DNA of 64,000 nt from the NCBI GenBank assembly GCA_963837315.1, contig CAWINE010000017.1, positions 342,549-406,548 of the forward strand, written 5' to 3'. Shown here one piece after another: positions 1,347 through 61,462 of this stretch. Numbering within the stretch: position 1 is the stretch's first letter; each line of letters begins with the position of its first letter. The stretch is from an uncultured Chloroflexia bacterium (GTDB taxonomy: Bacteria > Chloroflexota > Chloroflexia > QHBQ01 > JADMIH01). The notes below the pieces were generated by a model. It was not told where the DNA came from. It ran no database searches and worked only from the letters and a program-made list of their open reading frames with translations. A program made the translations under genes and the position numbers.

Positions 1347-1419
1347 AATTACGAATTACGAATTACGAATTACGGGTTATGCGGATCAATTCGTAATTCG
1401 TAATTCGTAATTCGTAATT
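1347..1419. repeat. Hairpin built from tandem heptamers (TTACGAA x4 / TTCGTAA x4)
   Basis: aattacgaattacgaattacgaattacg - ggttatgcggatc - aattcgtaattcgtaattcgtaattcgtaatt. The same unit recurs at 43758-43825. Confidence 0.9.
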
Positions 1420-3644: not shown

Positions 3645-4004
3645 TTGTCAGTGGGTGACCAAGTTGTCAGTTGTCAGTTGATGAGCGAAGCGAACTATTG
3701 TCAGTAGACGACCGGCGACGGTATTTTTCAACGCCAAGACGCCAAGACGCCAAGGATTTACGGTTTGAACCACAAAGGCACAAAGAGCACAAAGGGCACG
3801 AAGATTACGAAGGTTTATATGGGTTTGAATCACAGAGACCACAGAGGATTATTATGGTCTAAACCCATAGAAACCTTGGCGTACCTTAGCGTTCTTTGCG
3901 TCTTGGCGGTTACGTCTTACGTTTTACGTTTCAGCCGGTGGTCGTCGGTCGTCCGTCTACTGACAATTGATCGCTTCGATCAACTGACAACTGACAACTA
4001 CGTC
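3645..4004. repeat. Mosaic intergenic element, full-length copy, inverted orientation relative to 30380-30747
   Basis: It starts with GTTGTCA units directly after the stop codon and ends with CTGACAA units. The reverse complement aligns module by module with the 30380-30747 copy (gatgagcgaagcgaactattgtcagtagacgaccggcgacgg..., ccaagacgccaagg, cacaaag arrays, GGTTTCTATGGGTTTAGACCATAATAA core). Confidence 0.9.
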
Positions 4005-5008: not shown

Positions 5009-5079
5009 GGCATTGCGGATTGCGGATTGAAACGCCACGGCGATCAATTCACGATCCGCAATCCGCAATCCGCAATGCC
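5009..5079. repeat. Hairpin of GCGGATT / AATCCGC heptamers spanning the rimM start codon
   Basis: Left arm ggcattgcggattgcggattg (5009-5029). Right arm gatccgcaatccgcaatccgcaatgcc (5053-5079). ATG 5075 lies inside the right arm. Confidence 0.85.
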
Positions 5080-5864: not shown

Positions 5865-6133
5865 CGTAAAACGTAAAAGACGTAACCGCCAAGACGCCAA
5901 GGTCCGCCAAGGTTCGCCAAGGTTTCTATGGGTTTAAACCATAATAATCTCTGTGACCTCTGTGGTTCAAACCCATAAAACCTTCGTGCTCTTTGTGATC
6001 TTAGTGCTCTTCGTGATTAAACCCATAAAACCTTGGTGATCTTGGTGTCTTGGTGGTTCAAACCGTACAAATCTTGGCGTCTTGGCGTTGAAAACGTCCG
6101 TCTACTGACAACTGACAACTGACAACTGACAAC
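5865..6133. repeat. Mosaic intergenic element lacking the left GTTGTCA arm
   Basis: Module order: CGTAAAA units, ccgccaagacgccaagg, ggtttctatgggtttaaaccataataa, ctctgtga units, aaacccataaaa + cttcgtg units, aaacccataaaa + cttggtg units, cttggcgtcttggcg, CTGACAA x4. Confidence 0.9.
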
Positions 6134-6150
6134 TATGTAGGAGAATTTCC

Positions 6151-11193: not shown

Positions 11194-11381
11194 TGGATTA
11201 CGGTAACTCACCGCAGAGGCGCAGAGGGTACGCAGAGACGCAGAGTTACGCAGAGATTATTGTGGTTTGTGGATTACGGTACCTCATCACAGAGGCGCAG
11301 AGAATGTTATTGTTTCATTACTCTAAAAACTTAAATTACTCTCTGCGTAACTCTGCGTACTCTGCGCCTCTGCGGTGAGTT
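11194..11381. repeat. Large palindromic element built on CGCAGAG units, with partly duplicated left arm
   Basis: taactcaccgcagaggcgcagagggtacgcagagacgcagagttacgcagag ... ctctgcgtaactctgcgtactctgcgcctctgcggtgagtta. A second copy lies at 14546-14669. Confidence 0.9.
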
Positions 11382-11509
11382 ATGGTCGTACTGGTTTGCG
11401 ATGTGGGAATCACTGCAGATAAATATCTTGACAGAGCAGCTATCCTTCCGGTTATTATTTAGAAGTATTCTAAATAAATATCCACACGAAATAGATAGAG
11501 GTTCTAATT

Positions 11510-11990
11510 ATGGCCGGACATTTTCCTCTTACACTGACCGAAGACGACCTGATCGCCCATTTGCGCGATGCCGGGCTAAGGGTGACGCCGCAGCGGCTGG
11601 TGATTTACGAGACGCTGGTCAAGGACAAGCACCACCCGACGGCTCAGAACTCTTTTCGAGCGTCTCCAGAGCGTCCTTCCTTCGCTCAGCCAGGCGACTG
11701 TCTACAACACCCTTGAGACCATGGTGGAGATGGGCCTGGTGCGCGAGCTTGGCACCGCCGGCGATGGCACAGTGCGCTACGATGCCGATGTCAGTCCACA
11801 CGCTCACCTGGTATGCACAGGCTGCAATTCGATCGAGGACTTCGCGGCTGTGGAAGTGCCTGTTCCCCCCTTTTCCGTCTTTGAAGAGAGGGGTTACACG
11901 ATACGCTCCGTGGGAGTCTATTACTACGGACTTTGCCGGGATTGCTATAAGCAGCAAAAGTCCCATGAAGGAGGGCGCGCCGGTGAGTAA
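11510..11990 (+). pseudogene. Fur-family metalloregulator (Fur/PerR/Zur type) with one frameshift
   Basis: LRDAGLRVTPQRLVIYETLVKDKHHPTA, then after a frame change LFERLQSVLPSLSQATVYNTLETMVEMGLVREL...HAHLVCTGCNSIEDF. The shift is at the T4 run near 11650. With T3 the frame is continuous. Confidence 0.8.
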
Positions 11991-14622
11991 CTCTCCACTC
12001 AACGCCCCCCACGGAACTGCTGCCGGCATTGTCCAGGCTCCCGCTTCCGAGGCCAGGGATACGGCCTGTGTTGATTTGCTGCGCGAGGCCACGGACGACA
12101 AACCGGGTATCGTCAACGTCAACCTGGATACGCAGAACAAAGTAATGTCCTTCGGATATATGCCTGAGCTTGTTGCTCAGCCCGACCTGGACAAAATCGC
12201 TCAGGAGCTTGCGCCGACCCTTCACCAGAGGATGGAGACCTGCACCCTACGCGTGGGGCACGTGGGTGGGCGCGCCTGCAAATCTTGCGCGCTCGGCCTT
12301 GAGAGGCGTATGAGCCGCGTTCCGGGCGTGCGGCACGCCTCCGCCAGCTATCTGGGAGGCGTACTGAGCGTCACATACGACGGCGCGCTCCTTTCACCCG
12401 GCGCAATTGCCGATCGAGTAAAAGAATACGGAGTGCCTCTGTTACCGGCGTCAGTTGACGAAGAGGATGCCGCACAGCCGCGCACGCTGCGGGCGCGCCT
12501 GCAAAGCCGGCTCACGACCGACAACCTGGCCGTAGTGCTCACAGTGATTACTCTCGTGTCGATGCTGTTGGCGTTAGGCATCGAAAAGATCGTGGGTGCC
12601 TCGGGCGAGGATGTAGCCACAGGCCTGTACGCGGTGGCTTATGTAGCGGGCGGCAGCTTCGCGCTGAGGAAAGGCGTCGAGGCGTTGTTGCACGGCGTCA
12701 TCGATATTGACTTGCTGATGGTGCTGGCGGCGCTGGGCGCGGCCTTTGTAGGGTCCTTTCTTGAGGGGGCAGTGCTGCTCTTCCTCTTCTCGTTCTCCAA
12801 CGTTTTGCAGGCTTACGCCATCGACAGGACGCGCAATGCCATCAGGGCGCTGATGAAACTGCGGCCCAAGCAGGCGTCGGTGCGACGCGGCGATACCACT
12901 GTTGTGTTGCCTATCGAGCGCGTGATGGTGGGCGACTGCATCGTCGTGAAGCCGGGGGACCGCGTGGCGCTGGACGGCATGGTGTCGGCAGGCGAGAGCA
13001 CCGTCGACCAATCCTCCATCACAGGCGAGTCGATGCCCGTGAGCAAGTGCCTGGGCGACACAGTATTCGCGGGCACCATCAACAAGAACGGCAGCCTCGA
13101 CGTAACGGTGAGCAAGCTGGCGAAGGACTCGACGTTAGCGCAGCTCATCAAAATGGTGGAGGAGGCACAGAGCGAGAAAGCCCAGACCCAGCGCTTCATA
13201 GACCGGTTCGAGCAGTTTTACGCGGTGGCTGTGATCCTGATAACCGCGCTGGCGATTGTGGTGCCGATATTCATCTTTGCCGAGGTATTCCATTCGGCCT
13301 TCTATCGCGCCATGACGATCATGGTGGCAATGTCTCCCTGCGCGCTTGTGATCAGCACGCCCGCCTCGATCCTATCAGGAATCGCCAACGGAGCGCGCCG
13401 TGGCGTGCTGTTCAAGGGAGGCGTCCACCTGGAACAGGCTGCCCTCATCAAAGTAGTTGCGTTCGACAAGACCGGCACCCTGACTGAGGGCAAGCCGAAG
13501 GTGACCGATGTGGTGGTGCTGGCGGCGGACGAAGGACGAAAGACGAAGGACGAAGGACGAACCACGGCCGACGAAAGCGAGATACCTTCGTCCTTCGTCC
13601 TTCGTCCTTCGTCGGTCGACCGCCCTTCGCCCATCCTCACAGCGAGCGACCTTCTTGCCCTGGCTGCCGCTGTGCAGAGTAAATCCGAGCACGCTCTGGC
13701 GCGGGCCACCTTGGCGGCGGCGGCTGAGCATGATACGCAGGTGTCTGAGGCATTCGCCTTCCAGGCGACTACGGGCAAGGGCGTTCGCGGCCTTGTGGAT
13801 GGTCGGGATATCAGGATAGGTAACCTGCGATATTACGAAGGGTTCAAGTGCATAGGAAGGGAAGAGGCCGAGTGCGAGGTGCTGCGGCTGGAGCACGAGG
13901 GCAAGACCAGCGTGATTGTGGGCGAACTGGGCGACGACGGCGAGACCGCCACCATGCTCGGCGTAATTGCGTTCGCAGACCTGTTGCGGCCCGAGGTGGC
14001 AAGCATCGTGCGCGCCATCAAGGCGGCGGGAGTTGAGCACGTAGTGATGCTAACAGGCGACAACCGCCACGCAGCCGAAGCCATCGCACGGCAGGCAGGA
14101 TTGGACGATTTCTACGCCGAGCTGCTGCCTGAGGACAAGGTGAGGGTAGTCAGAGAGATCGGTGAAAAGTATGGCCCCGTGGCGATGGTGGGTGACGGTG
14201 TGAACGATGCGCCCGCCCTGGCGACCGCCCGCCTGGGCATCGCGATGGGCGCGGCGGGCACCGACGTAGCTCTCGAGACAGCCGATGTGGTGCTAATGGG
14301 TGACGACTTGCGCCAGATCCCGTACCTGATCGCCCTCAGCAAGCAGACCCGTCGCACCCTCGTGACCAACATCGGCTTTGCGATGTTCATGATCTTCCTG
14401 ATGCTGTTGGGGATATTCGCGATACAGCTGCCCCTACCTGCGGCCGTAGTGGGCCACGAAGGGGGCACAGTGCTGGTGTCTCTCAACGGCCTGCGCCTTC
14501 TTGGGTATAAATACCGCCCATCAGAAAGCAATTACTGGGACGACCGTAACTCACCGCAGAGGCGCAGAGGACGCAGAGTTACGCAGAGATTTCTTTGGTT
14601 TTGTTACTCCTGCAAACATTAA
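11965..14622 (+). CDS. P1B-type heavy-metal translocating ATPase, SPC / HEGGT signature (P1B-4-like)
   Basis: DKTGTLT, TGES, GDGVNDAP, TM motif AMSPCALV, HEGGTVLVSLNG, and an N-terminal HMA-like CKSC. Start chosen at ATG 11965, because the ORF-track start at 11401 overlaps the fur gene. The last ~20 aa and the stop lie in the CGCAGAG element. Confidence 0.9.
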   Translation: MKEGAPVSNSPLNAPHGTAAGIVQAPASEARDTACVDLLREATDDKPGIVNVNLDTQNKVMSFGYMPELVAQPDLDKIAQELAPTLHQRMETCTLRVGHVGGRACKSCALGLERRMSRVPGVRHASASYLGGVLSVTYDGALLSPGAIADRVKEYGVPLLPASVDEEDAAQPRTLRARLQSRLTTDNLAVVLTVITLVSMLLALGIEKIVGASGEDVATGLYAVAYVAGGSFALRKGVEALLHGVIDIDLLMVLAALGAAFVGSFLEGAVLLFLFSFSNVLQAYAIDRTRNAIRALMKLRPKQASVRRGDTTVVLPIERVMVGDCIVVKPGDRVALDGMVSAGESTVDQSSITGESMPVSKCLGDTVFAGTINKNGSLDVTVSKLAKDSTLAQLIKMVEEAQSEKAQTQRFIDRFEQFYAVAVILITALAIVVPIFIFAEVFHSAFYRAMTIMVAMSPCALVISTPASILSGIANGARRGVLFKGGVHLEQAALIKVVAFDKTGTLTEGKPKVTDVVVLAADEGRKTKDEGRTTADESEIPSSFVLRPSSVDRPSPILTASDLLALAAAVQSKSEHALARATLAAAAEHDTQVSEAFAFQATTGKGVRGLVDGRDIRIGNLRYYEGFKCIGREEAECEVLRLEHEGKTSVIVGELGDDGETATMLGVIAFADLLRPEVASIVRAIKAAGVEHVVMLTGDNRHAAEAIARQAGLDDFYAELLPEDKVRVVREIGEKYGPVAMVGDGVNDAPALATARLGIAMGAAGTDVALETADVVLMGDDLRQIPYLIALSKQTRRTLVTNIGFAMFMIFLMLLGIFAIQLPLPAAVVGHEGGTVLVSLNGLRLLGYKYRPSESNYWDDRNSPQRRRGRRVTQRFLWFCYSCKH
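13528..13613. repeat. GACGAAG-heptamer hairpin element inserted in frame inside the ATPase coding sequence
   Basis: Left arm is gacgaag x5 (13528-13562). Right arm is cttcgtc x4 (13586-13613). It translates as DEGRKTKDEGRTTADESEIPSSFVLRPSSV, between the KPKVTDVVVL and SDLLALAAAVQSKSEH blocks of the nucleotide-binding domain. Confidence 0.85.
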
Positions 14623-14669
14623 ATAATCTCTGCGAAACTCTGCGTACTCTGTGCCTCTGCGGTGAGTTA
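14546..14669. repeat. Second copy of the CGCAGAG palindromic element
   Basis: gtaactcaccgcagaggcgcagaggacgcagagttacgcagag ... ctctgcgaaactctgcgtactctgtgcctctgcggtgagtta. It contains the ATPase stop codon. Confidence 0.9.
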
Positions 14670-16038: not shown

Positions 16039-16951
16039 CTAAATCGGGGTGAGCGGATTGGCCGAAAAGGCGATCTCCTGCAACGCCTCCTGGGCTGCTT
16101 CCTTCATGGCGGGGTCGTTGCCCTGGATAACCTCGTTGAGAGCTTCGGCTGCAGGTTTGCCGCCTATCTGGCCGAGCGCCCATATGGTTGCCAGGCGCAC
16201 TTCGGTGTCGTCGTCGTTTATCAGGTGGGCTAGCTGTGGCAAGGCATCTTCGAGGGTCATCTCGCCCGCGGCATGAGCAGCCTCGTAGCGCATAGCCGGG
16301 CGCTCGCTTCGTAGCTCGTGGAGCACGATAGGCGACCACTGGTTGTCCATACTGCGGCCCATCGCCAGCACGGCGCTTTCGGCGTTACGCCCACTCTGCC
16401 GGTATTGGTCCGCGATAAGCTGCTTCACCTCGTCGTCGCCGTGCAGGTAGCCAAGGCTCTCCACGGCGCGGCGACGCACGTCGCTTTCCTCTGCTCTGTC
16501 GTTGGCGCTCTCCATGAGGGCGTCGCGGAGCCTGCCGGCCTGCCCGTTCAGCTTATTGCATTCCGCCAGGTAGGTAAAGCGGCCCAGGGAGGTAGCGGCG
16601 GCCTCGCGCACGTACTGGTCCGGAGTCGTTGCGGAGTATATTGACCAGCCTGCCCATCAGCAAGCTACTGGTGTCTTCGACAAGGCCCTCGATAGCCGAG
16701 CGGCGCACGTCCGCGTTGCTATCTTCCAGGGCAATGAGGAAGACATGGCGGAAATCGAAGTCGATGTTGTCCTCGATGATATCAACGAGGGCATCCACGA
16801 TGCGGATGCGGCGGTCGAGCGGCAAGCCCGGCCAGACTTCTCGAAGGATAGCGCGGTCCTCGCTACCAGGATCCGAAAGGAACTTGAGCGCCTTGACGCC
16901 AGGAGTACCGCCCTGTTTGAGGTCCTGCAGGTTCTCTCTGAAAGTTGCCAT
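16039..16951 (-). pseudogene. HEAT-repeat protein, one frameshift
   Basis: ORFs 16553-17017 and 16039-16611 join as ...LVNILRNDS/DQYVREAAATSLGRF..., with D..VR..A...LG HEAT motifs throughout. The shift is near 16633. Start ATG 16951 (MATFRENL) or 17017. Confidence 0.7.
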
Positions 16952-19879: not shown

Positions 19880-20129
19880 TACAACCTTAATCTGAACGCT
19901 TACTCGCCACAGCCGGGCATCCCCACATAACACCGAACAGTAACGGAATGAACCACAAACCCTTATCATTCTCAGTGCGTTCCTTGTGCCCTTTGTGCCT
20001 TTGTGGTTCATTTCGTCAGGGGTCGTTGTGATTGCAGCTATGAGTGGGATATCAGGCCAACGGAATTGACAAGCAGGGGTGCCTCGGATAGAATGTGGCG
20101 ACTCCATCTTGTTCAGGAGCCTGGGCGGT

Positions 20130-20633: not shown

Positions 20634-20813
20634 GTTTTCACCGCCAAGACGCCAAGGTCAGCAAAGGTTCGCCAAGATACCTATTGGATTTAATCGATAT
20701 GATCCGATGATTCCAACCCGATAAAACCTTCGTGATCTTCGTGATCTTCGTGAATTCAAAACAATAAAAACCTTGGCGTCTTGGCGGTTAAGGTAATCCG
20801 CAATCCGCCAATC
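20634..20813. repeat. Degenerate or short copy of the mosaic element
   Basis: caccgccaagacgccaagg ... aaaaccttcgtgatcttcgtgatcttcgtga ... aaaaaccttggcgtcttggcgg, followed by aatccgcaatccgccaatcc. Confidence 0.75.
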
Positions 20814-24660: not shown

Positions 24661-24714
24661 GTCTACCGACAACTGACAACTGACAACCGACAACTACGTC
24701 AAACAACTGACAAC
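24661..24714. repeat. Isolated right arm of the mosaic element (CTGACAA-type units)
   Basis: gtctaccgacaactgacaactgacaaccgacaactacgtcaaacaactgacaac. Confidence 0.8.
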
Positions 24715-25864: not shown

Positions 25865-26100
25865 GCGTGAAGCGTGAAACGTAAGGGGCTAGGGGCTAGT
25901 GGCTAGTGGCTAGTGCAGGTTCACGTAGAGGTCTTGTGCAAAGGGGGTGCAGGGGAGCTCCCCTGCCGGGGCCGGGGGTGTCCCCAGCTTCCCTCGTTCG
26001 TCATAGATGGTGCAGGGGATCTCCCCTGCCGGGGGTTGGGGTGTCCCCAAACTTCCTATTCCCCAATATCTCTCATGAACATGCACTAGGGGCTAGGCGT
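25865..26100. repeat. Repeat cluster: GTGAARC units, GGCTAGT units, and a second pair of GTGCAGGGG...GGGGTGTCCCC repeats
   Basis: ggcgtgaagcgtgaaacg, ggggctaggggctagtggctagtggctagtg. Copy 3 is 25944-25993 and copy 4 is 26007-26055. It closes with cactaggggctagg. Confidence 0.85.
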
Positions 26101-28620: not shown

Positions 28621-28692
28621 CTGATATTGCTTACTGCTTACTGCTTATTCCTTCAAAAATCTTGGCGACCTTTGCGTCTTGGCGGTTAAGAA
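28621..28692. repeat. Repeat fragment: TGCTTAC units plus CTTGGCG module
   Basis: gctgatattgcttactgcttactgcttatt...aatcttggcgacctttgcgtcttggcggttaag. Confidence 0.7.
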
Positions 28693-29413: not shown

Positions 29414-29560
29414 AAGCCAAGACGACGGTTGTCAGTTGTCGGTTGTCAGTTGTCAGTTGACCGGAGCTATCAGCTATCAGCTATCAGCCGGCCTTCGCTC
29501 TTCGTCCATCGTCCGTCGTCCGTCTACTGACAACTGACAACTGACAACTGACAACTACGT
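29414..29560. repeat. Short form of the mosaic element (outer arms only, with CAGCTAT units in the centre)
   Basis: gccaagacgacg, gttgtca x4, gagctatcagctatcagctatcagcc, cttcgtccatcgtccgtcgtccgtctactgacaa, ctgacaa x4. Confidence 0.9.
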
Positions 29561-30379: not shown

Positions 30380-30747
30380 GTTGTCAGTTGTCAGCAGACG
30401 GGCGATGGACGATGGACGACCGTCAGTGTAAAACGTAAGAGGTAAAACGTGAAACGTAACCGCCAAGACGCCAAGTTCCGCCAAGGGCCGCCAAGGTTTC
30501 TATCGTTTTAACCATAATAACCTCTGTGATCTCTGTGTTCTCCGTGCGCTCTGTGATTTAAACCCATAATAACCTTCGTGGTCTTCGTGACCTTCGTGAT
30601 CTTCGTGTTAAAACCCATAGAAACCTTCGTGATCTTTGTGTCTTTGTGGTTCAAACCGTAAAAACCTTGGCGTCTTGGCGTTGAAAAATACCGTCGCCGG
30701 TCGTCTACTGACAATAGTTCGCTTCGCTCATCAACTGACAACTGACA
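30380..30747. repeat. Mosaic intergenic element, full-length reference copy
   Basis: All modules are present in order, from GTTGTCA x2 to CTGACAA x2 (see the first finding). It fills the whole gap between two genes. Confidence 0.9.
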
Positions 30748-30756
30748 TAGGAACCA

Positions 30757-31329
30757 ATGACAAGAACAGATTTTAGCCAATACGATCCGGAAATACCGAT
30801 GTATTGCGCGAACCACCCGGATACACAAACGTTCTTGCGCTGCGGCAAGTGCGAGAAGCCTATCTGTGCGCGGTGCCGGGTGAGTACGCCTGTGGGCTTC
30901 CGCTGCTACGATTGTGCCAACATGCAGGTAGTGCCCACTTACGCGGTCAGTGCCGATTACTACCTCAAGGCCGCCCTCATGGGTGGGGTGGCTGCCGCGA
31001 TTATAGGCGCGCTGATGGGCATCTTCCCGGGGTTCGAGTTCTGGGCTGCGCTCATTATGGGCATAGCGGTGCCTGAGGCGGTTGCGGCGGCAGCCAACCA
31101 GAAGCGTGGGCCGGGCCTGCGAGCAGTAGCAATAGGTGCTATCATTTTCGGTTTTGTACTGAGCCGTGTGGTGCTGAACGCCTTTCCCGGTCTGCTGTTG
31201 CTCGGAGGCATAAACTACCCGTCGCCGGGAGGTATCTCCTGGCTTGATCACCTGCCTATCTACGTAACCCAGTACACCATTCTATGGCTGGCAATGGCCA
31301 TTTTGCTTGCCTACCAGCGGCTTCGATAA
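30757..31329 (+). CDS. Membrane protein with N-terminal B-box-like zinc ribbon
   Basis: CANHPDTQTFLRCGKCEKPICARCRVSTPVGFRCYDC, followed by 4-5 TM segments. Confidence 0.7.
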   Translation: MTRTDFSQYDPEIPMYCANHPDTQTFLRCGKCEKPICARCRVSTPVGFRCYDCANMQVVPTYAVSADYYLKAALMGGVAAAIIGALMGIFPGFEFWAALIMGIAVPEAVAAAANQKRGPGLRAVAIGAIIFGFVLSRVVLNAFPGLLLLGGINYPSPGGISWLDHLPIYVTQYTILWLAMAILLAYQRLR

Positions 31330-32382: not shown

Positions 32383-32665
32383 GTTGTCAGTTGTCAGTTG
32401 ACCGGCGACCGAGGACGAAACGTAAAACGTAAAACGTAAGACGTAACCGCCAAGACGCAAGAACCTCTAAGGTCGCCAAGGCTTCTATGTGTTCTAGACC
32501 AACAAATCCTCTGTGATCTCTGTGGTCTGTGTAATTCAACCATAATAACTTCGTGATCTTCGTGATCTTCGTGATCTTCGTGATTAAAAAGCCGATAGCT
32601 GATAACTACCGTCTACTGACAAATAGTGCGCTTCGCTCATCAACTGACAACCTGGTCCGACAACT
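32383..32665. repeat. Mosaic intergenic element, intermediate-length copy
   Basis: gttgtca x2, cgtaaaa x3, ccgccaagacg, ctctgtgatctctgtgg, cttcgtgat x4, ccgtctactgacaaatagtgcgcttcgctcatcaactgacaac. Confidence 0.9.
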
Positions 32666-36982: not shown

Positions 36983-37126
36983 GCGTGAACACGTTACCTA
37001 TCAAGACTTCAATAGGCCCTGAAACAGTCGAATTGCGCGCAGATTCCGCTTCTCTGCCTGAGAACCTTTATCTATTCGATGAGCGCAACAGGGCGTTCTT
37101 GGAATACCGCTCCAAAAAGCTCTACG

Positions 37127-37444
37127 ATGTTGGCCCTACAGCCCTACAATTGTAAATGGAGGGCCGTTACCGGCGTTTCTATTCTATTCCTGCCAGTTCT
37201 TATTGCAGTGCTATCTTCTTTGTACAGGGACACTGTTATTGGGATAAGAACAGATCAACTTCGGCAAGATGGTGTTACGCCCCATGGGCGCATAACAAGG
37301 CACGATAAATTTGGGGGTGGTAGGAGCGGTCCAAGTTATGAGATATCATTCCAGTTAATAATTAATGGCACGACTGTGATAGTGCCCATAGAAGAATCCA
37401 GGCTTACCGAAGGCTTTGCAGGGTCGAAAAGCATTGTACCTTAG
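37127..37444 (+). CDS. Hypothetical small membrane-anchored protein in an AT-richer patch
   Basis: ORF 37079-37444 with one TM segment (VSILFLPVLIAVLSSLY). No family recognised, weak support. Confidence 0.3.
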   Translation: MLALQPYNCKWRAVTGVSILFLPVLIAVLSSLYRDTVIGIRTDQLRQDGVTPHGRITRHDKFGGGRSGPSYEISFQLIINGTTVIVPIEESRLTEGFAGSKSIVP

Positions 37445-40773: not shown

Positions 40774-41475
40774 TTAGTCCTCTGTTTCACGGTGTCGTAA
40801 GGCCTGGCACGCTTCAATAAACTCATGAGACGTGGATGTATATCCTTCATTGGTCTCGAACAATCTCATAATTGCGTAGCGCACCCAACCGCCTTCAGGA
40901 TTGTGGTTATCAAGGGTATCTGCGAACTCGTTTGTACCTGGCGGACTTGTGCAATCGCGGAGCATAATAACCCGGAAGTTATGCTCCATGGCTCCTATGC
41001 AAGTATGGTAAAGACAAGACCTCAGACTGAAGCCTACGGCAATCAATGTGTCTATGCCCCAGGTTTTGAGGTACTGGCCGGCGAATGTATCTCGGAATCC
41101 GTTGCGGTCAGCTTTCTGAAACTCCGGCTCGGTATCCAGGGGCGCTATGATCGGGAAATAGCTGGGTCTTGAAGGTTTCCAGCCTGATGGGTCGAGGCGC
41201 TCGCGAGCATGCCGCGTTCCGTGTAGCTCTCGTGATATGTTGCGAGGCCCACCTTCTCCACCCGGCGCGTTGTGGAAGTATATGACTTTAGTTCCAACCT
41301 CGCGTGCTGCTGCCAGAACAGGCGCGATATTTTCTTTGATTACCTTGTTATTTTCGGGTCCGCAATCACCATAACAATCCACAAGCATAAGAGCCGTTCC
41401 GACTACGTCAATGTTCAGCGTTCTATAAATTGCTATTTCATCATGGAATTGCACTTGTAACGTCAGTTTGCTCAT
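40774..41475 (-). CDS. Isochorismatase-family cysteine hydrolase
   Basis: ALMLVDCYGD..., TLIAVGFSLRSCLYHTCIGAMEHNFRVIMLRDC. Confidence 0.75.
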   Translation of the reverse strand: MSKLTLQVQFHDEIAIYRTLNIDVVGTALMLVDCYGDCGPENNKVIKENIAPVLAAAREVGTKVIYFHNAPGGEGGPRNISRELHGTRHARERLDPSGWKPSRPSYFPIIAPLDTEPEFQKADRNGFRDTFAGQYLKTWGIDTLIAVGFSLRSCLYHTCIGAMEHNFRVIMLRDCTSPPGTNEFADTLDNHNPEGGWVRYAIMRLFETNEGYTSTSHEFIEACQALRHRETED

Positions 41476-41518
41476 GTAAGTGTTCTTTGGCGCACAATCA
41501 AATACCTTATCAATTCAA

Positions 41519-41743
41519 TCAAGTGGCTGTTTGGTAGATAACGGGGCGATAGCGCGGTTCCGGAATGGGTTTTCCTTCTATCTTTGCGGCCTCCAACCAG
41601 GCGGACTTTGCTATTTCCAGTTCAGCCAAAGCCTCATAAGGCGTCTTACCGAAAGCGGAGCAGTATTCCAAATCAGGGATATCGGCAATATAGCCTTCAT
41701 CCTCGTCGCTATAAAAGATATTGATATGGTAATCTTTCATCAT
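41519..41743 (-). CDS. HicB-family antitoxin-like protein
   Basis: YHINIFYSDEDEGYIADIPDLEYCSAFGKTPYEALAELEIAKSAWLEAAKIEGKPIPEP. Confidence 0.8.
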   Translation of the reverse strand: MMKDYHINIFYSDEDEGYIADIPDLEYCSAFGKTPYEALAELEIAKSAWLEAAKIEGKPIPEPRYRPVIYQTAT

Positions 41744-41948
41744 CTTCGATTAACTTTTGGTCGTACCTCGAAGCTATTCCGCGAGCCATAGAAACAACCA
41801 TCGAATTCAGCGAAGAAGTTTGCCTGGCCAAGTAACAAAGGTACTTTTTCAGAGCGCGTCCAGGCAAATGCCAGTCGAACCGGCTCAAATTGCCCTCGCC
41901 ACGTGCATTTTTGAGTGGGGCATATGGAACGAGTAGGCTATCAGCCAT
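41709..41948 (-). CDS. Small hypothetical protein upstream of hicB, possible degenerate or frameshifted toxin
   Basis: The ORF overlaps hicB by 35 nt. An alternative frame after the A5 run near 41840 ends in ATGA overlap with the hicB start, which suggests a 1-nt indel. I could not see a clear HicA GSH motif. Confidence 0.35.
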   Translation of the reverse strand: MADSLLVPYAPLKNARGEGNLSRFDWHLPGRALKKYLCYLARQTSSLNSMVVSMARGIASRYDQKLIEDDERLPYQYLL

Positions 41949-42156
41949 TAGGTGATTCTACAACGTCTTGCAGCATCTTGTTCAGTTTCGCAGCAGCTTC
42001 CGGCGCATCGAAAGGCGACCAGATTTCATATTGCGCCCCAGGAATCAATAGAGCTTCTTCCTCAGCCGATAATTCTAGCACCAATAGTTGCATGGCCCGA
42101 AGCTTATCGGCCCGATTAAGCTTACGAAGCTCCACAAATAGCTCTTCAGCACTCAT
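41941..42156 (-). CDS. Small hypothetical protein (71 aa), antitoxin-like, translationally coupled to the next ORF
   Basis: MSAEELFVELRKLNRADKLRAMQLLVLELSAEEE... It overlaps the downstream ATG by 8 nt. Confidence 0.45.
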   Translation of the reverse strand: MSAEELFVELRKLNRADKLRAMQLLVLELSAEEEALLIPGAQYEIWSPFDAPEAAAKLNKMLQDVVESPNG

Positions 42157-43757: not shown

Positions 43758-43825
43758 AATTACGAATTACGAATTACGAATTACGAATTTACGAATTGCC
43801 AACCTTTCATTCGTAATTCGTAATT
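43758..43825. repeat. TTACGAA-heptamer hairpin (same unit as 1347-1419)
   Basis: aattacgaattacgaattacgaattacgaatttacgaatt - gccaacctttc - attcgtaattcgtaatt. Confidence 0.9.
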
Positions 43826-43833
43826 CAAGTAAT

Positions 43834-44239: not shown

Positions 44240-44305
44240 TTAGAAGTTAGAAATTAGAAATTAGAAGTTAGAACCAAATCTAACTTCTAATTTCTAATTT
44301 CTAAT
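44240..44305. repeat. TTAGAAR-heptamer hairpin
   Basis: ttagaagttagaaattagaaattagaagttagaa - ccaaa - tctaacttctaatttctaatttctaat. Confidence 0.9.
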
Positions 44306-44343
44306 ATCAATTTTCTGACTTATAATCCTCTGATTATACCACA

Positions 44344-46296: not shown

Positions 46297-46583
46297 GTTG
46301 TCAGTTGTCAGTAGAACAGTAACCGCCAAGACGCCAAGTTCCGCCAAGGTCGCCAAGGTTTTCATTGTTTAAGCCCATCAAATCCATAAGCGAAGTAGTT
46401 CGCTCATCTCTGATCTACTGTGCACTCTCTACTCATGAGAAGGGTGCCCTCTGGGCTGCGAGCTCTGATTCAAACCCATAAAAACCTTCGTGATCTTCGT
46501 GCTCTTCGTGCTCTTCGTGATTTAAAACCTGATAGCTGATAGCCGATAAGCTACCTGACAACTGACAACTGACAACTGACAAC
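46297..46583. repeat. Mosaic intergenic element with a divergent ~100-nt central insert
   Basis: gttgtca x2, ccgccaagacgccaag..., unique centre 46375-46470, aaacccataaaaaccttcgtgat units, gatagctgatagcc, ctgacaa x4. Confidence 0.85.
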
Positions 46584-49192: not shown

Positions 49193-49230
49193 GACGAAGG
49201 ACGAAGGCAGAAATGCCTTCGTCCTTCGTC
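49193..49230. terminator. GACGAAG-unit hairpin after the MFS gene
   Basis: gacgaaggacgaaggc-agaaat-gccttcgtccttcgtc. Confidence 0.7.
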
Positions 49231-50978: not shown

Positions 50979-50996
50979 GTCTGCCAGGTTGTCAGT

Positions 50997-51032
50997 GGAA
51001 GGACGAAGGTAGTTGGCCTTCGTCCTTCGTCC
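50997..51032. terminator. GACGAAG-unit hairpin between the paralogs
   Basis: ggaaggacgaagg-tagtt-ggccttcgtccttcgtcc. Confidence 0.65.
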
Positions 51033-51106
51033 TCGCCACCGCATTTCTTAGGTTATACTATCAGCCGGTAGCTAAAGCACCCCAAAACTCGGCATGGAGA
51101 ACAACG

Positions 51107-52778: not shown

Positions 52779-52838
52779 CGGACGAAGGACGAAAGACGAA
52801 GGACGAAGGCTAACCTTCGTCTTTCGTCTTTCGTCCGT
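52779..52838. terminator. GACGAAG-unit hairpin between convergent genes
   Basis: acggacgaaggacgaaagacgaaggacgaagg-ctaa-ccttcgtctttcgtctttcgtccgt. Confidence 0.75.
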
Positions 52839-56184: not shown

Positions 56185-57750
56185 TTACTTGGCGTACTCT
56201 ATGGCACGAGTTTCGCGGACTACGGTTACTTTGATCTGGCCCGGGTATTCCAGGCTTTCTTCGATCCGTTTGGCCACGTCTCGCGCCAATCTCATCGCGC
56301 CGAGGTCGTCTATCAACTCGGGTTTGACGAGCATTCTGACTTCGCGCCCTGCCTGTATGGCGAAGCTCTTTTCAACTCCCTCGAAAGAGTTGGCGACAGC
56401 TTCGAGCGCCTCCAGGCGTTTGATATAGTGCTCCACGCTATCGCGCCGCGCACCGGGGCGTCCACCGGAGAGGGCATCTGCGGCCTGCACTATCCAGGCC
56501 TCCACCGTTTCCGGCTCTTCCTCGTTATGGTGTGCTGCGATTGCATGTACTATCTTCTGCGACCGTCCGAGCCGCTTGGCTAGCTCCGCGCCGATGATTG
56601 CATGAGGGCCTTCGACCTCGTGGTCGACAGCTTTTCCGATGTCGTGCAACAGCGTAGCGGTCCTGGCTACGTTCACGTCGGCGCCGATTTCGGCGGCCAG
56701 GGCTGCCGCGATCTTTGCGGCCTCCACAACGTGGTGTAGCTGGTTTTGCCCGTAGCTGGTGCGGTACATCAGCCTGCCCAGTAGCTTGATAAGATCAGGA
56801 TGTAGTCCCTGAACGTTGGCGGCATAGGCAGCTTTTTCGCCCTCCTCACGCATCTGCGTTTCTACCTCTGCTTTGGCTTTCGTAACCACCTCTTCTATGC
56901 GAGCGGGGTGGATACGGCCATCGGCGATCAACTTGAGCAAAGCTCGACGGGCCACCTCACGGCGAACCGGGTCGAATGCCGACAGGGTAATGGCTTCGGG
57001 GGTCTCATCTATGATGAGGTCGACCCCTGTTGCCTGCTCGATTGCGCGGATGTTTCGTCCTTCGCGGCCGATTATACGGCCTTTCATTTCATCATTGGGC
57101 AGCGGCACAGTGGAAGTGGTGATTTCGGGCACATACTCGGATGCTGCTCTCGACGCTGCGATTGACAGTATCTTGCGTATGCGAGTGTCGGCCTCTTCTT
57201 TGACCTCGGCCTCTACCTCACGATAGCGGCGATTGGCATCTATCCTTACTTCCTCCTCGATTTCGGCAAGTAGGACTGATTTGGCCTCCCCGGCTGTCAT
57301 GCCTGCGACACGCTCCAACTCTTTGCGCTGTTCTTCCTGCATATTGCTTATGCTGGCTTGCAGAGCATCGAGCTCGCGCTCTCTGGCTAGAAGCGTTTTC
57401 TCACGTTTCTCTGTGGTTTCGAGCTTGCGGTCGAGATTCTCCTCTTTTTGCTGGAGTCTTCGCTCCTGGCGCTGCACTTCGGCTCGCCTTTCGCGGTACT
57501 CGGTTTCAACTTCGCTCCTGATCTGGTGCGATTGGTCTTTAGCTTGTAGGACTATCTCTTTACGCTGGGCTTCGACCTCCCGGATGGCTACGCCGGCCTT
57601 CTCTTCGGCGGTCTTTACCCTCTCGTCAGCCAGCTCTTTCTCTCTTGATAGAGCTGACCTCGCTGACCTGAATGCTACGTATGCGGCTACGGTGGCAATA
57701 ATTGCGACAACCGCAACTACAATCCCGATCACCGCAAGGGGATCTAACAT
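56185..57750 (-). CDS. rny: Ribonuclease Y (TM anchor, coiled coil, KH, HD domain)
   Basis: [24 protein letters not shown] (KH) and [27 protein letters not shown] (HD). GGGAGG RBS before ATG 57750 ([15 protein letters not shown]...). Confidence 0.92.
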
Positions 57751-58005
57751 AAGACACCTCCCTATTCTGTTTTTAAGGTACGTCGTTGGACGTGGTAGTA
57801 CGTTGTTTTTCGGGAGGACTACATAACCTCCCGTTCGGATTTGCCTGTGCAAGACCTTCGATACTTTTGGAGTATCGAGCAGTCCAGGTTACAGGCGTAG
57901 TTTATCTAACAGCATAGCCGCAAGGCTAATTTGTATAACTTGTATGATACAGGCGGAACGGTCTACCTGTCAAGGTCTTTACAAGAAAGTTTCGTTGGAA
58001 GCCGT

Positions 58006-58056: not shown

Positions 58057-58132
58057 GTGGCTGTAGCTCAGTGGATAGAGCGTTGGGTTGCGGACCCAAA
58101 GGTCGGGGGTTCGAGCCCCTCCAGCCACGCCA
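58057..58132 (+). tRNA. tRNA-Arg, anticodon GCG, CCA encoded
   Basis: Manual cloverleaf: GTGGCTG-TA-GCTC AGTGGATA GAGC-G-TTGGG TTGCGGA CCCAA-AGGTC-GGGGG TTCGAGC CCCTC-CAGCCAC-G-CCA. Confidence 0.8.
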
Positions 58133-58172
58133 CACGAGCCGACCTAAAAGGTTGGCCCTTTTTTTAGCAAGT

Positions 58173-58258
58173 GGAGAGGTCGCATAGTGGCCTAGTGCGC
58201 TCGTCTCGAAAACGAGTGGGTCTGAAAAGCCCCGTGGGTTCGAATCCCACCCTCTCCG
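58173..58258 (+). tRNA. tRNA-Ser, anticodon CGA (long variable arm)
   Basis: GGAGAGG-TC-GCAT AGTGGCCTA GTGC-G-CTCGT CTCGAAA ACGAG-variable arm-GTGGG TTCGAAT CCCAC-CCTCTCC-G. Confidence 0.85.
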
Positions 58259-58261
58259 CCC

Positions 58262-58348
58262 AAACGAATGCGGAATGTGGAATTCGGAATGCGGAATAGC
58301 ATTTCCGTTCCACATATCAATTCCGAACTCCGCATTCCACATTCCGCA
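58262..58348. repeat. GAATGYG-unit hairpin in the spacer between the two tRNA-Ser genes
   Basis: cgaatgcggaatgtggaattcggaatgcggaat-agcatttccgttccacatatc-aattccgaactccgcattccacattccg. Confidence 0.85.
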
Positions 58349-58352
58349 ATGT

Positions 58353-58440
58353 GGAGAGGTCGCCTAGAGGCCTAGGGCGCTCGCCTGGAAAGCGGGTACG
58401 GGGAAACTCGTCGTGGGTTCGAATCCCACCCTCTCCGCCA
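58353..58440 (+). tRNA. tRNA-Ser, anticodon GGA, CCA encoded
   Basis: GGAGAGG-TC-GCCT AGAGGCCTA GGGC-G-CTCGC CTGGAAA GCGGG-variable arm-GTGGG TTCGAAT CCCAC-CCTCTCC-G-CCA. Confidence 0.85.
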
Positions 58441-61195: not shown

Positions 61196-61462
61196 AGTCG
61201 TGCTAGATGGGGAACTAGCGGTGCCCTGTAACCCGCAAACCGCTCCAGCGGGGTTGAATTCCCTTTCGAGGTCCGACATTGTGGGACTGCGTCTGTTAAG
61301 CGGTGTTGACGATTGGGTCCTGCGCGGCGAAAGCCTACGAAATTGGTCAGGTCTGGAAGGAAGCAGCCATAAGTAGTCCCTTTCGGGTGCCGCAGGGTCG
61401 CCTGATTCGAGCTGGCTGGCAGCCGTAAGCCGGAATGCCGTATCGGAAAAGGGTGCACGACG
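61196..61462 (+). ncRNA. ffs: Signal recognition particle RNA, large Bacillus-type with Alu domain
   Basis: 5' gtcgtgctagatggggaactagcggtgccctgtaacccgc parallels the Alu-domain start of B. subtilis scRNA. Domain IV is ggtcaggtctggaaggaagcagccataag...gtgccgcagggtcgcctga. The 5' gtcgtgc pairs with the 3' gcacgac. Confidence 0.85.

What the first reader, a model, noticed from the sequence alone, without database searches (positions are those of the whole stretch)
30380..30747. Mosaic intergenic element family with a fixed order of short-repeat modules
At least seven loci share one ordered series of modules: 3645-4004 (inverted), 5865-6133, 20634-20813 (degenerate), 29414-29560 (short), 30380-30747, 32383-32665 and 46297-46583. 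Fragments occur at 19975-20012, 24661-24714 and 28621-28692. The module order is (GTTGTCA)n, a GACGA-rich stretch, (CGTAAAA)n, CCGCCAAGACGCCAAGG, GGTTTCTATGGGTTTAAACCATAATAA, (CTCTGTGAT)n, TTCAAACCCATAAAA, (CCTTCGTGAT)n, TTAAACCCATAAAA, (CCTTGGTGAT)n, TTCAAACCGTAAAA, CCTTGGCGTCTTGGCG, TTGAAAA, CGTCTACTGACAA..GCTTCGCTCATCAA, (CTGACAA)n. The outer modules are reverse complements of each other and could form a long stem. The inner ~150 nt are direct 9-mer arrays that differ by 1-2 nt (CTCTGTG, CTTCGTG, CTTGGTG, CTTGGCG), separated by a conserved AAACCCATAAAA linker. Copy number per module varies between loci, short forms keep only the arms, and one copy has a foreign central insert. The elements are always intergenic and often fill the entire gap between genes. 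They encode no plausible ORF and no transposase is nearby. The logic resembles E. coli BIMEs and cyanobacterial STRR heptamer arrays, but I do not recognise this family. At this density (about 1 per 8 kb) it is a dominant feature of genome architecture.
Basis: seen in the sequence. Interest (0 to 1): 0.85.

Follow-up and report, generated by a model that had tools for sequence, protein, structure and literature searches.

The report
Gene-less hairpin shells of a nuclease cassette
The mosaic repeats are real: they are fast-changing, gene-less DNA palindromes. Their core arms match the inverted repeats that, in at least ten other bacterial phyla, enclose a small uncharacterised nuclease gene (GxxExxY), an association I could not find described in the literature.

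Summary
At least seven colinear mosaic copies, two simpler hairpins and several solo arms lie in 64 kb of a Chloroflexota genome, far above chance.

The core is not lineage-specific. Its arms are tandem 7-nt words of the form CRCNRAG, here CGCCAAG, spaced 1-3 nt and bounded by AC...GT. The same arms occur in record titles from at least 10 phyla. In 56 of 80 metagenomic loci they enclose a ~125-aa GxxExxY (PF13366, PD-(D/E)XK) nuclease gene.

Each follows a linker that is the reverse complement of the linker after the single 5' arm. This core is nested inside heptamer-repeat hairpins (GTTGTCA/CTGACAA and others).

Orthologous sites in relatives (96, 86, 83 and 72% identity) lack the element, carry other elements, or differ by whole modules. 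Stem mismatches show no strand bias (61 G·T, 60 A·C), which points to DNA palindromes rather than a selected RNA structure.

Best reading: non-autonomous elements comparable to MITEs, REPINs and BIMEs. No GxxExxY gene lies in the window, and mobility is inferred, not shown. I found no Rfam family or published description.

The parts
30380..30394 (+). Outer 5' arm, (GTTGTCA)2. It pairs with (CTGACAA)n at 30735-30747.
30395..30426 (+). Second-layer 5' arm, GACGA-rich, (CGATGGA)2.4. It is complementary to the CGTC-rich stretch at 30691-30708.
30427..30456 (+). (CGTAAAA)-type heptamer array.
30457..30496 (+). Core 5' arm, TAAC-(CGCCAAG)4 with 1-3 nt spacers. The same arm encloses GxxExxY genes in other phyla.
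30497..30521 (+). Inner linker, TTTCTATCGTTTTAACC... It is the reverse complement of the linkers that precede each 3' array.
30522..30555 (+). 3'-type array, (CTCTGTG)4, which is the CACAGAG flavour.
30556..30573 (+). Linker, ATTTAAACCCATAATAAC.
30574..30607 (+). 3'-type array, (CTTCGTG)4, which is the CACGAAG flavour.
30608..30624 (+). Linker, TTAAAACCCATAGAAAC.
30625..30648 (+). 3'-type array, CTTCGTG followed by (CTTTGTG)2, which is the CACAAAG flavour. It ends in GGTTCA.
30649..30665 (+). Linker, GTTCAAACCGTAAAAAC.
30666..30680 (+). Core 3' arm, (CTTGGCG)2. It is the perfect partner of the 5' arm.
30681..30734 (+). TTGAAAA, then the CGTC-rich partner of layer 2, then the TAGTTCGCTTCGCTCATCAA module.
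30735..30747 (+). Outer 3' arm, (CTGACAA)n, which is the same as (CAACTGA)n. It ends 9 nt before the ATG at 30757.
3645..4004 (-). Mosaic copy A, between convergent genes.
5865..6133 (+). Mosaic copy B. It lacks the outer 5' arm and ends 16 nt before the ATG at 6151.
20634..20813 (+). Degenerate copy F: CGCCAAG arm, (CTTCGTGAT)3, CTTGGCGGTTAA, then (AATCCGC)n.
29414..29560 (+). Short copy G. It has only the outer heptamer shells, (GTTGTCA)4.6, (AGCTATC)3.4, ..., (CTGACAA)4.4, and no core.
32383..32665 (+). Mosaic copy D. Its ortholog in L113 lacks the outer arms and the CTTCGTG array.
46297..46583 (+). Mosaic copy E, with an unrelated central segment of about 100 nt.
11209..11379 (+). Complete gene-less hairpin of the CGCAGAG flavour, TCAC-(CGCAGAG)n...(CTCTGCG)n-GTGA.
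14552..14666 (+). Second CGCAGAG-flavour hairpin. It overlaps the 3' end of the ATPase ORF.
19971..20012 (+). Solo 3' arm of the CTTTGTG flavour, ending in GGTTCA.
28661..28689 (+). Solo 3' arm, CTTGGCG..CTTGGCGGTTAA.
24661..24714 (+). Solo (CAACTGA)n array, 18 nt upstream of the ATG at 24736.
13523..13613 (+). (GGACGAA)n/(CCTTCGT)n heptamer hairpin, in frame inside the P-type ATPase gene.

Best explanation
**What it is.** The element is a gene-less, nested DNA palindrome of a Chloroflexota genome.

**The core.** Its core is the inverted-repeat shell of a widespread gene cassette. Each arm is built from 2-4 tandem 7-nt words of the form CRCNRAG, here CGCCAAG, spaced 1-3 nt and bounded by AC...GT. 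In other bacteria these arms tightly enclose a ~125-aa GxxExxY (PF13366, PD-(D/E)XK) nuclease gene.

**What differs here.** The gene is absent. The loop instead holds three or four stacked 3' arms of different word flavours. Each follows the same linker, and that linker is complementary to the linker after the single 5' arm. The core sits inside one or two outer hairpins made of tandem heptamers (GTTGTCA/CTGACAA, a GACGA-rich layer, AGCTATC).

**How it most likely works.** The elements behave like non-autonomous selfish DNA, comparable to MITEs, REPINs and BIMEs. I infer that copies arise and change in three ways:
- insertion into or next to existing palindromes, which gives the nesting;
- slippage within arrays;
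- tandem duplication of arm units and ectopic exchange of modules.

They may be mobilised in trans by a GxxExxY nuclease encoded elsewhere in the genome.

**Likely side effect.** When transcribed, the elements place very stable hairpins in 5' UTRs and between cistrons, and they place (CAACTGA)n arrays at ribosome-binding regions. Effects on mRNA processing or translation are therefore likely.

**Shown and inferred.** Shown: homology of the arms, association with the gene elsewhere, turnover at orthologous sites, and the symmetric mismatch spectrum. Inferred: mobility, the role of the nuclease, and any effect on RNA.
For: Their record titles span 10 phyla. In at least 16 loci the pattern is the 5' arm of a hairpin with an unrelated loop.

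**2. The arms enclose a GxxExxY gene.**
- In L023 and L019 the loop holds a GxxExxY gene, in either orientation.
- The L006 loop holds a decayed fragment of the gene, E = 3.5e-16.

**3. A search starting from the protein finds the same arms.**
- Of 80 metagenomic GxxExxY loci, 56 have the gene enclosed by tandem-word arms. The stems contain 1494 Watson-Crick pairs out of 1720 aligned positions.
- With both flanks available, 44 of 65 loci reach an inverted-repeat score of at least 14, against 0 of 65 shuffled controls.

**4. Database proteins carry arm-encoded ends.** At least 48 of the 120 closest database homologues have C-terminal tails LGxLGVLAV, which is the translated 3' arm. At least 10 have N-terminal heads NRQDAK, which is the translated 5' arm.

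**5. Gene and arms descend together.** I counted 11 word flavours. The nearest-neighbour protein has the same flavour in 32 of 57 cases, against 6.7 expected at random.

**6. The window arrays follow the same rules.** They use the same words, the same AC/GT boundaries and the same GGTTCA termini. Stacked solo 3' arms also occur elsewhere: L037 has 15 in tandem.

**7. Orthologous sites show turnover.** Intergenic gaps in the window are 192, 387, 17 and 302 nt. In L029 the same gaps are 259, 73, 117 and 72 nt, and in L030 they are 126, 52, 66 and 56 nt.
- L112 has 19 nt at site C.
- L113 (96% identity) has the site-D element without the outer arms and the CTTCGTG array.
- L029 has a heptamer element where the window has only 17 nt.

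**8. The mismatch spectrum is symmetric.** There are 61 G·T mismatches on the sense strand and 60 A·C mismatches. Neither strand folds consistently better.

**9. The nuclease looks intact.** D71, E81 and K83 are invariant in the alignment. The AlphaFold2 model has a mean pLDDT of 89.5, and its closest solved folds are Cas4 and lambda exonuclease.
Against: - No GxxExxY gene lies in the window or in about 52 kb of related contigs. Whether the source genome has one is unknown.
- I saw no target-site duplications at 57 cassette boundaries.
- No experiment links GxxExxY to mobility. The family is absent from the phage and viral collections, and in the plasmid collection it occurs on only 8 records, all typed non-mobilizable. 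No vehicle for cross-phylum spread was found.
- Differences at orthologous sites could come from in-situ expansion and deletion rather than transposition.
- In the informative gene contexts, the asymmetric copies lie in the sense orientation. (CAACTGA)n arrays sit 9-18 nt from start codons in 5 of 7 cases. This would also fit a selected role in cis.
Confidence: 0.6

Rival explanations
1. The elements are primarily cis-acting RNA elements of the host. The long hairpins in 5' UTRs and intercistronic regions would direct RNase III-type processing or stabilise mRNA. The (CAACTGA)n arrays next to start codons would tune translation, as proposed for TAACTGA repeats in Beggiatoaceae.
For: - Folds are very stable, with z-scores from -5.5 to -7.9.
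- One 5' arm can pair with two or three alternative 3' units, at -40 to -64 kcal/mol, against -19.6 +/- 4.2 for shuffled units.
- Asymmetric copies in tandem-gene contexts are all in the sense orientation.
- (CAACTGA)n lies 9-18 nt upstream of start codons in 5 of 7 cases. This matches the published pattern for TAACTGA (PMC4679880).
- A Nostoc preprint reports effects of heptamer repeats on expression (10.1101/2022.06.06.494920).
Against: - The same genes in relatives at 72-86% identity lack the elements.
- Across 56 cassette stems, G·U pairs show no excess over A·C (61 against 60).
- Neither strand folds consistently better.
- I found no U-tract terminators and no Rfam match.
Confidence: 0.2
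2. The arrays are DNA binding sites for a host protein, such as a nucleoid-associated or iteron-binding factor. That protein would recognise the CRCNRAG words or the heptamers, and the palindromy would reflect dimeric binding.
For: - Word positions C1, C3 and G7 are conserved in all 11 flavours and across phyla.
- Spacing is a regular 8-9 nt.
- The strand symmetry fits recognition at the DNA level.
Against: - No candidate protein is known.
- An 8-9 bp period does not match the helical repeat of DNA.
- The arms travel with the GxxExxY gene rather than with any host regulon.
- The sites are dispensable at orthologous positions.
Confidence: 0.1
3. The elements are purely local products of replication slippage, with no copying between loci and no function.
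For: - Copy number per module varies between copies.
- Words are homogeneous within an array, which is what slippage produces.
Against: - Identical 16-30-mers and identical non-repetitive linkers and modules occur at 5-7 loci. One example is TAGTTCGCTTCGCTCATCAA.
- The same arms occur in other phyla.
- Both arms of the outer hairpin are gained or lost together between the window and L113.
Confidence: 0.05
4. The arrays are assembly artefacts of low-complexity sequence.
For: None beyond the repetitive nature of the sequence.
Against: The same architecture appears in independent assemblies:
- JGI metagenomes (L112, L113);
- an NCBI metagenome-assembled genome (L029);
- an isolate draft genome (Botrimarina colliarenosi, L019) and two finished records (CP087563, L017; the Gemmatirosa plasmid, L114).
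Confidence: 0.01

Closest known systems
REP / REPIN elements with their RAYT gene (Enterobacteria, Pseudomonas; PMC3733652; Bertels and Rainey 2011, cited from my own knowledge)
   Same: - Both are short extragenic palindromes in many copies.
- A small nuclease or transposase gene is itself flanked by the same palindromes.
- Gene-less copies are dispersed between genes, and a few lie inside genes.
   Different: - The arms here are tandem 7-nt words bounded by paired AC/GT. They lack the unpaired GTAG or CGTC tag.
- The associated gene encodes a PD-(D/E)XK (PF13366) protein, not an HUH/Y1 transposase.
- The gene is often multi-copy and lies inside the hairpin loop.
BIMEs of E. coli (mosaics of REP Y/Z units with fixed linkers; from my own knowledge)
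   Same: Both are mosaics with a fixed order of palindromic units and conserved linkers, a variable number of units, and an intergenic position.
   Different: The unit sequences are unrelated. Here one 5' arm faces several stacked 3' arms. Outer shells of heptamer repeats are added. No IHF or gyrase sites are known.
STRR heptamer repeats of heterocystous cyanobacteria, and the TAACTGA direct repeats of Beggiatoaceae, Cyanobacteria and Bacteroidetes (PMC4679880)
   Same: The outer modules are tandem heptamers in intergenic DNA. CAACTGA differs from TAACTGA by one base. Like TAACTGA, it usually sits a few nucleotides upstream of a start codon.
   Different: The phylum and the words differ. Here the arrays come as inverted pairs that form the shells of a nested palindrome around a different kind of core.
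MITEs, the non-autonomous derivatives of transposons
   Same: Both have terminal inverted repeats without a gene, many copies, and presence/absence differences between relatives. A gene-bearing version with the same ends exists elsewhere.
   Different: I saw no target-site duplication. No transposase activity is known for GxxExxY. The ends are internally repetitive.
ORF-bearing intervening sequences of 23S rRNA, in which a hairpin with a small ORF in its loop is excised by RNase III (from my own knowledge)
   Same: In both, a small ORF is packed into the loop of a long perfect hairpin that can sit inside a host transcript.
   Different: The location is intergenic rather than in rRNA. The protein family is different. 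I found no evidence here for selection at the RNA level.

Membership tests
GxxExxY-cassette hairpin (defined here from 57 gene-bearing examples) | Arms of at least 2 tandem CRCNRAG words spaced 1-3 nt, mirrored by CTYNGYG words. | tested here: met
   Window arrays at 30461-30495 with 30666-30680, at 11212-11255 with 11341-11374, and others. Compare.
GxxExxY-cassette hairpin (defined here from 57 gene-bearing examples) | Outer boundary AC|word...word|GT, often extended to TNAAC/GTTNA or TCAC/GTGA. | tested here: met
   Window boundaries read gtAAC|CGCCAAG, tCAC|CGCAGAG...CTCTGCG|GTGA and CTTTGTG|GTTCA.
GxxExxY-cassette hairpin (defined here from 57 gene-bearing examples) | A GxxExxY (TIGR04256 / PF13366) ORF lies in the loop. 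| tested here: not met
   phmmer and hmmsearch on six-frame ORFs of the window found none. The window copies are empty shells, as are most of the 28 genome loci.
REP / REPIN-RAYT | A 20-40 bp palindrome with an unpaired GTAG or CGTC tag at one end (PMC3733652). | tested here: not met
   The ends are paired AC/GT and carry no GTAG tag. That paper lists no CGCCAAG-type family.
REP / REPIN-RAYT | A cognate RAYT (Y1/HUH transposase) gene is flanked by the repeats. | tested here: inconclusive
   None was found among the window ORFs I scanned. The rest of the genome was not available.
BIME | Built from E. coli-type REP (PU) Y and Z units with the L, S, l, r and s linkers. | tested here: not met
   The unit and linker sequences are unrelated. 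The resemblance is one of logic only.
STRR / TAACTGA-type heptamer repeats | Tandem direct heptamers in intergenic DNA, often just upstream of start codons. | tested here: met
   There are about 45 period-7 arrays in the window. (CAACTGA)n lies 9-18 nt from a start codon in 5 of 7 cases. This applies to the outer modules only, not to the core.
STRR / TAACTGA-type heptamer repeats | The published words (TAACTGA, STRR1-3) and the published host groups. | tested here: not met
   The word here is CAACTGA and the host is Chloroflexota. PMC4679880 does not mention Chloroflexi.
MITE | Terminal inverted repeats. | tested here: met
MITE | A target-site duplication and a demonstrated cognate transposase. 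| tested here: inconclusive
   No duplication was evident at 57 cassette boundaries. Empty and filled sites in relatives are too diverged to map exact junctions. Transposase activity cannot be tested with these tools.
Any Rfam RNA family | A score at or above the family's gathering threshold. | tested here: not met
   Nothing scored at the elements. The only weak match was mir-1537 at 40.8 bits, below its threshold of 63.
Intrinsic terminator | A GC-rich stem followed by a U tract. | tested here: not met
   Terminator-like sites were no more frequent than in shuffles, and none lay at the ends of the arms.

The most novel reading that the evidence does not exclude
GxxExxY genes together with their tandem-word inverted repeats form a previously unrecognised class of autonomous mobile or homing cassettes, found across phyla and driven by a minimal PD-(D/E)XK nuclease. 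The CRCNRAG words would be the nuclease's recognition code, co-varying with the protein clade. The Chloroflexota mosaics would be its non-autonomous, BIME-like derivatives, which have colonised half of the intergenic gaps of at least 60 nt in this window.
Probability: 0.3. Interest if true: 0.9.

Novelty: new variant of a known kind. Interest (0 to 1): 0.74.

Why it matters
**A large family with no known function gains a testable one.** The GxxExxY / PF13366 family has 33,842 clusters at 50% identity and no assigned function. Only three papers in the searched library mention it, and the two I checked say nothing about its function. Most of its members examined here sit inside a stereotyped hairpin, and the same 30-nt arm recurs from Cyanobacteria to Planctomycetota to Chloroflexota. 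This suggests a specific hypothesis: a nuclease that recognises or propagates its own palindrome.

**Consequences for annotation.** Many database proteins carry arm-encoded tails and heads. Host ORFs can run into hairpins or tolerate them in frame.

**Consequences for this lineage.** The elements fill a large share of intergenic space. They place very stable structures at ribosome-binding regions, so they probably shape operon expression and genome plasticity.

Tried and rejected
- **Source genome.** Exact-protein look-ups of two window proteins found nothing, so the source genome is not in that collection.
- **Metagenome pattern scan.** A scan for the lineage-specific junction AAACGT..ACGTAACCGCCAAGACGC gave 0 hits.
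- **Viral and phage collections.** Neither holds GxxExxY.
- **Plasmids.** Only 8 records carry GxxExxY, and all are typed non-mobilizable.
- **Rfam.** Searches at the gathering and E-value thresholds found nothing meaningful.
- **Terminators and promoters.** The scan showed no enrichment.
- **RNA-structure signature.** I tested for an excess of G·U over A·C and for a better-folding strand. Both tests were negative.
- **Small ORFs next to arrays in the window.** I checked whether they might be cassette genes. They are housekeeping families: DUF952, DksA-type zinc finger, signal peptidase II, NUDIX and DUF4446.
- **Solved structures.** A sequence search of the PDB with GxxExxY gave no match. The fold search gave only weak matches to generic PD-(D/E)XK proteins.
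- **CRISPR-like array.** Rejected, because the period is 7-9 nt and there are no spacers.
- **L003 (Caldilineaceae).** Its pattern match looks like a chance hit, with no repeated words.
Full report
**1.

Tandem Repeats Finder lists 102 rows in the window, dominated by periods of 7-10 nt. A blastn self-search and a MAFFT alignment of seven loci show one colinear module order. The loci are 30380, 3645 on the minus strand, 5865, 32383, 46297, 20634 and 29414.

The three reported fragments are real:
- a solo CTTTGTG arm at 19971-20012;
- a solo (CAACTGA)n array at 24661-24714;
- a solo CTTGGCG arm at 28661-28689.

Both read TCAC-(CGCAGAG)n...(CTCTGCG)n-GTGA.

Chance is excluded on several counts:
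- The 16-mer GTAACCGCCAAGACGC occurs 7 times against 0 in shuffles.
- There are 34 tandem-word arrays against a mean of 4.6 in shuffles.
- Fold z-scores range from -5.5 to -7.9.
- 59 of 83 arrays lie in the 14.6% of the window that is intergenic, and 22 of 45 gaps of at least 60 nt carry arrays.

**2. The organism.**

The window is about 58% G+C and carries a large bacterial SRP RNA. The closest homologues of its PfkB-type kinase are metagenomic proteins at 96, 90 and 86% identity. At 83% identity the closest is a genome labelled Chloroflexota, and lower matches are labelled Chloroflexia. The source genome itself is not in the exact-match collection.

**3. The core arms occur in many phyla.**

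The pattern GTAACCGCCAAGACGC-N5-30-CGCCAAGG has 24 specified bases. By my own estimate, about 0.1 chance hits would be expected.

The record titles name Cyanobacteria, Planctomycetota, Verrucomicrobiota, Lentisphaerota, Acidobacteriota, Chloroflexota, Bacillota, Myxococcota, Bacteroidota and Pseudomonadota. The G+C content of these loci ranges from 0.45 to 0.70.

In at least 16 loci the match is the 5' arm of a hairpin whose 3' arm is CCTTGGCGnnCTTGGCGTCTTGGCGGTT. The loops are unrelated to each other. Some hairpins are nested in heptamer arms, as in the window: (GGTGGCT)7 in L002 and (GGACGAT)6 in L024.

**4. What the arms belong to.**

In L023 (Lentisphaerales) and L019 (Botrimarina, an isolate) the loop holds a small ORF, in either orientation. 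The ORF is a GxxExxY protein, matching TIGR04256 at 1.5e-41 and PF13366 PDDEXK_3 at 1e-40. The L006 loop holds a decayed fragment of the gene, E = 3.5e-16.

I then searched from the protein alone:
- At least 48 of the 120 closest database homologues carry the tail LS.PLG.LGVLAVQ, which is the translated 3' arm. At least 10 carry the head MNRQDAKSAK, which is the translated 5' arm.
- Of 80 metagenomic GxxExxY loci, 56 have the gene enclosed by tandem-word arms. With both flanks available, 44 of 65 reach an inverted-repeat score of at least 14, against 0 of 65 shuffled controls.
- The arm rule is AC|(CRCNRAG N1-3)2-4 ... (CTYNGYG)2-4|GT. The median distance is 17 nt from the 5' arm to the start of the profile match to the gene, and 14 nt from the end of that match to the 3' arm.
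- There are 11 word flavours: CGCCAAG, CGCAGAG, CACGGAG, CACGAAG, CACAGAG, CGCCGAG, CACAAAG and four rarer ones. Flavour tracks protein relatedness: the nearest neighbour has the same flavour in 32 of 57 cases, against 6.7 expected at random. Gene and arms therefore descend as a unit.

A finished Gemmatirosa replicon shows a variant in which the gene is followed by an empty CGCAGAG hairpin.

The family is large, with 33,842 clusters at 50% identity. Its catalytic D...ExK residues are invariant in the alignment. The AlphaFold2 model is confident, with a mean pLDDT of 89.5. Its nearest solved folds are Cas4 SSO0001 and lambda exonuclease, but the matches are only weak.

**5. Re-reading the mosaic.**

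This applies to CTCTGTG, CTTCGTG, CTTTGTG, CTTGGTG and CTTGGCG.

Most arrays are followed by GGTTCAAACC or ATTAAACCC. The first is the same kind of terminus as CTTGGCGGTTCAACC in L023 and L019.

Each array is preceded by a linker, GTTTAAACCCATAGAAAC. That linker is the reverse complement of GTTTCTATGGGTTTAAAC, which follows the single 5' arm.

One 5' arm therefore faces three or four alternative 3' arms. Predicted duplex energies are -40 to -64 kcal/mol, against -19.6 +/- 4.2 for shuffled units.

Stacks of solo 3' arms also occur elsewhere: L037 has 15 in tandem with a 37-nt period.

Around this core lie shells of tandem heptamers. Copy G (29414-29560) is such a shell without a core. This fits nesting of one palindrome inside another.

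**6. Turnover between relatives.**

Gene order is conserved: Tmk, WecG, a 190-aa ORF, PfkB, then a FlgD_ig protein. The intergenic gaps differ:

| Genome | Gap sizes (nt) |
|---|---|
| Window | 192, 387, 17, 302 |
| L029 (83% identity) | 259, 73, 117, 72 |
| L030 (72% identity) | 126, 52, 66, 56 |

- L112 (86% identity) has 19 nt at site C and a different palindrome at site D.
- L029 has a heptamer element where the window has only 17 nt. It also has a mosaic with the order CGTAAAA, CGCCAAG, linker, CAACTGA at 16388-16588.
- L113 (96% identity) has the site-D element with the same inner order. It lacks the outer GTTGTCA/CTGACAA arms and the CTTCGTG array. A profile of the mosaic matches it at E = 6e-23.

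Module order is therefore conserved outside the window, while whole modules come and go quickly. L030 has almost no arrays.

**7. DNA or RNA?**

Across 56 cassette stems I counted 1494 Watson-Crick pairs. There were 61 G·T mismatches on the sense strand, 60 A·C mismatches and 105 others.

The many two-sided word changes between flavours keep the arms complementary, so pairing matters. The symmetric mismatch spectrum argues against selection on one transcript strand, as does the lack of a consistently better-folding strand.

The elements match no Rfam family and do not look like intrinsic terminators.

**8. Interpretation.**

The best-supported reading is non-autonomous, selfish DNA palindromes related to the GxxExxY cassette. 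The closest analogues are REPINs with their RAYT gene, and BIMEs.

The elements fail the REP membership test. They have no GTAG or CGTC tag, and the associated gene is of a different kind.

The outer heptamers match the STRR and TAACTGA phenomenon in form. (CAACTGA)n lies 9-18 nt from a start codon in 5 of 7 cases (PMC4679880).

Mobility and a role for the nuclease are inferred. No GxxExxY gene lies in the window or in the related contigs, and I saw no target-site duplications.

A host cis-regulatory role remains a live rival. It may also be a side effect of selfish elements.

**9. Literature.**

A full-text search found only three papers that mention GxxExxY, two of which were listed. A separate search for PF13366 found two more. 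Of these I read only the mention in the reverse-transcriptase classification paper. In Steczkiewicz et al. 2012, PDDEXK_3 is listed with function "Unknown" and multiple transfers between divisions (PMC3424549). Neither passage describes the hairpins.

Noticed in passing
window 13523-13613: A (GGACGAA)n/(CCTTCGT)n heptamer hairpin lies in frame inside a heavy-metal P-type ATPase gene, just after the DKTGT motif. It adds 22-35 residues that homologues at 57% identity lack.
   Followed up: yes
window 14552-14666: The last 23 or so codons of the ATPase ORF (11401-14622) run into the 5' arm and loop of a CGCAGAG hairpin. The C-terminus is therefore partly element-encoded.
   Followed up: partly
window 1347-1419, 5012-5076, 43758-43826, 44240-44313, 49193-49230, 50990-51035, 52780-52835: Simple hairpins whose two arms are tandem heptamers (AATTACG, ATTGCGG, TTAGAAA, GGACGAA). 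Several fill the whole gap between genes, and one fills a 60-nt gap between convergent genes. None has a U tract.
   Followed up: partly
window 25946-26052: Two direct copies of about 50 nt, ggtgcaggggagctcccctgccgggg...ggggtgtcccca, each internally palindromic. They appear to be a different repeat family, sitting next to (GGCTAGT)n arrays.
   Followed up: no
window 24661-24714, 6104-6134, 29526-29556, 30735-30747, 32641-32665: (CAACTGA)n arrays end 9-18 nt upstream of start codons. This is one base away from the TAACTGA repeats reported at the same position in Beggiatoaceae.
   Followed up: partly
window 37079-37444 and 40774-42156: ORFs in these stretches have low third-position G+C (0.43-0.50), and 40-42 kb has the lowest G+C in the window (0.52). 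This may be foreign DNA. It carries no arrays.
   Followed up: no
L037 1222-1760: Fifteen solo 3' arms (CTCGGCG or CCTGGCG doublets followed by GGTTCAAT) lie in tandem with a 37-nt period, downstream of a GxxExxY gene. They resemble a satellite built from one arm.
   Followed up: partly
P0001-P0120 and P0361-P0510: Many database GxxExxY proteins carry arm-encoded tails (LGxLGVLAV) or heads (NRQDAK). Some representatives of 250-295 aa contain two GxxExxY domains, probably from read-through between adjacent cassettes.
   Followed up: partly
L112 2677-2908 and 1-180: The 86%-identity relative has a different palindrome at site D, built on GAGCGAAGCGAA/TTCGCTTCGCTC. This is the same motif as the window's GCTTCGCTCATCAA module. 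It also has a CTTTGCG arm followed by a long (GGTCGTY)n array.
   Followed up: partly
L114 783-865 (Gemmatirosa kalamazoonensis plasmid NZ_CP007129): A GxxExxY gene, matched in two tblastn pieces, is followed rather than enclosed by an empty CGCAGAG hairpin. The record is a finished genome from an eleventh phylum, Gemmatimonadota.
   Followed up: partly
window 56185-57852, 58057-58440, 61198-61460: An RNase Y gene, a cluster of tRNA-Arg, tRNA-Ser and tRNA-Ser, and a large bacterial SRP RNA. These are ordinary features that helped with taxonomic placement.
   Followed up: yes
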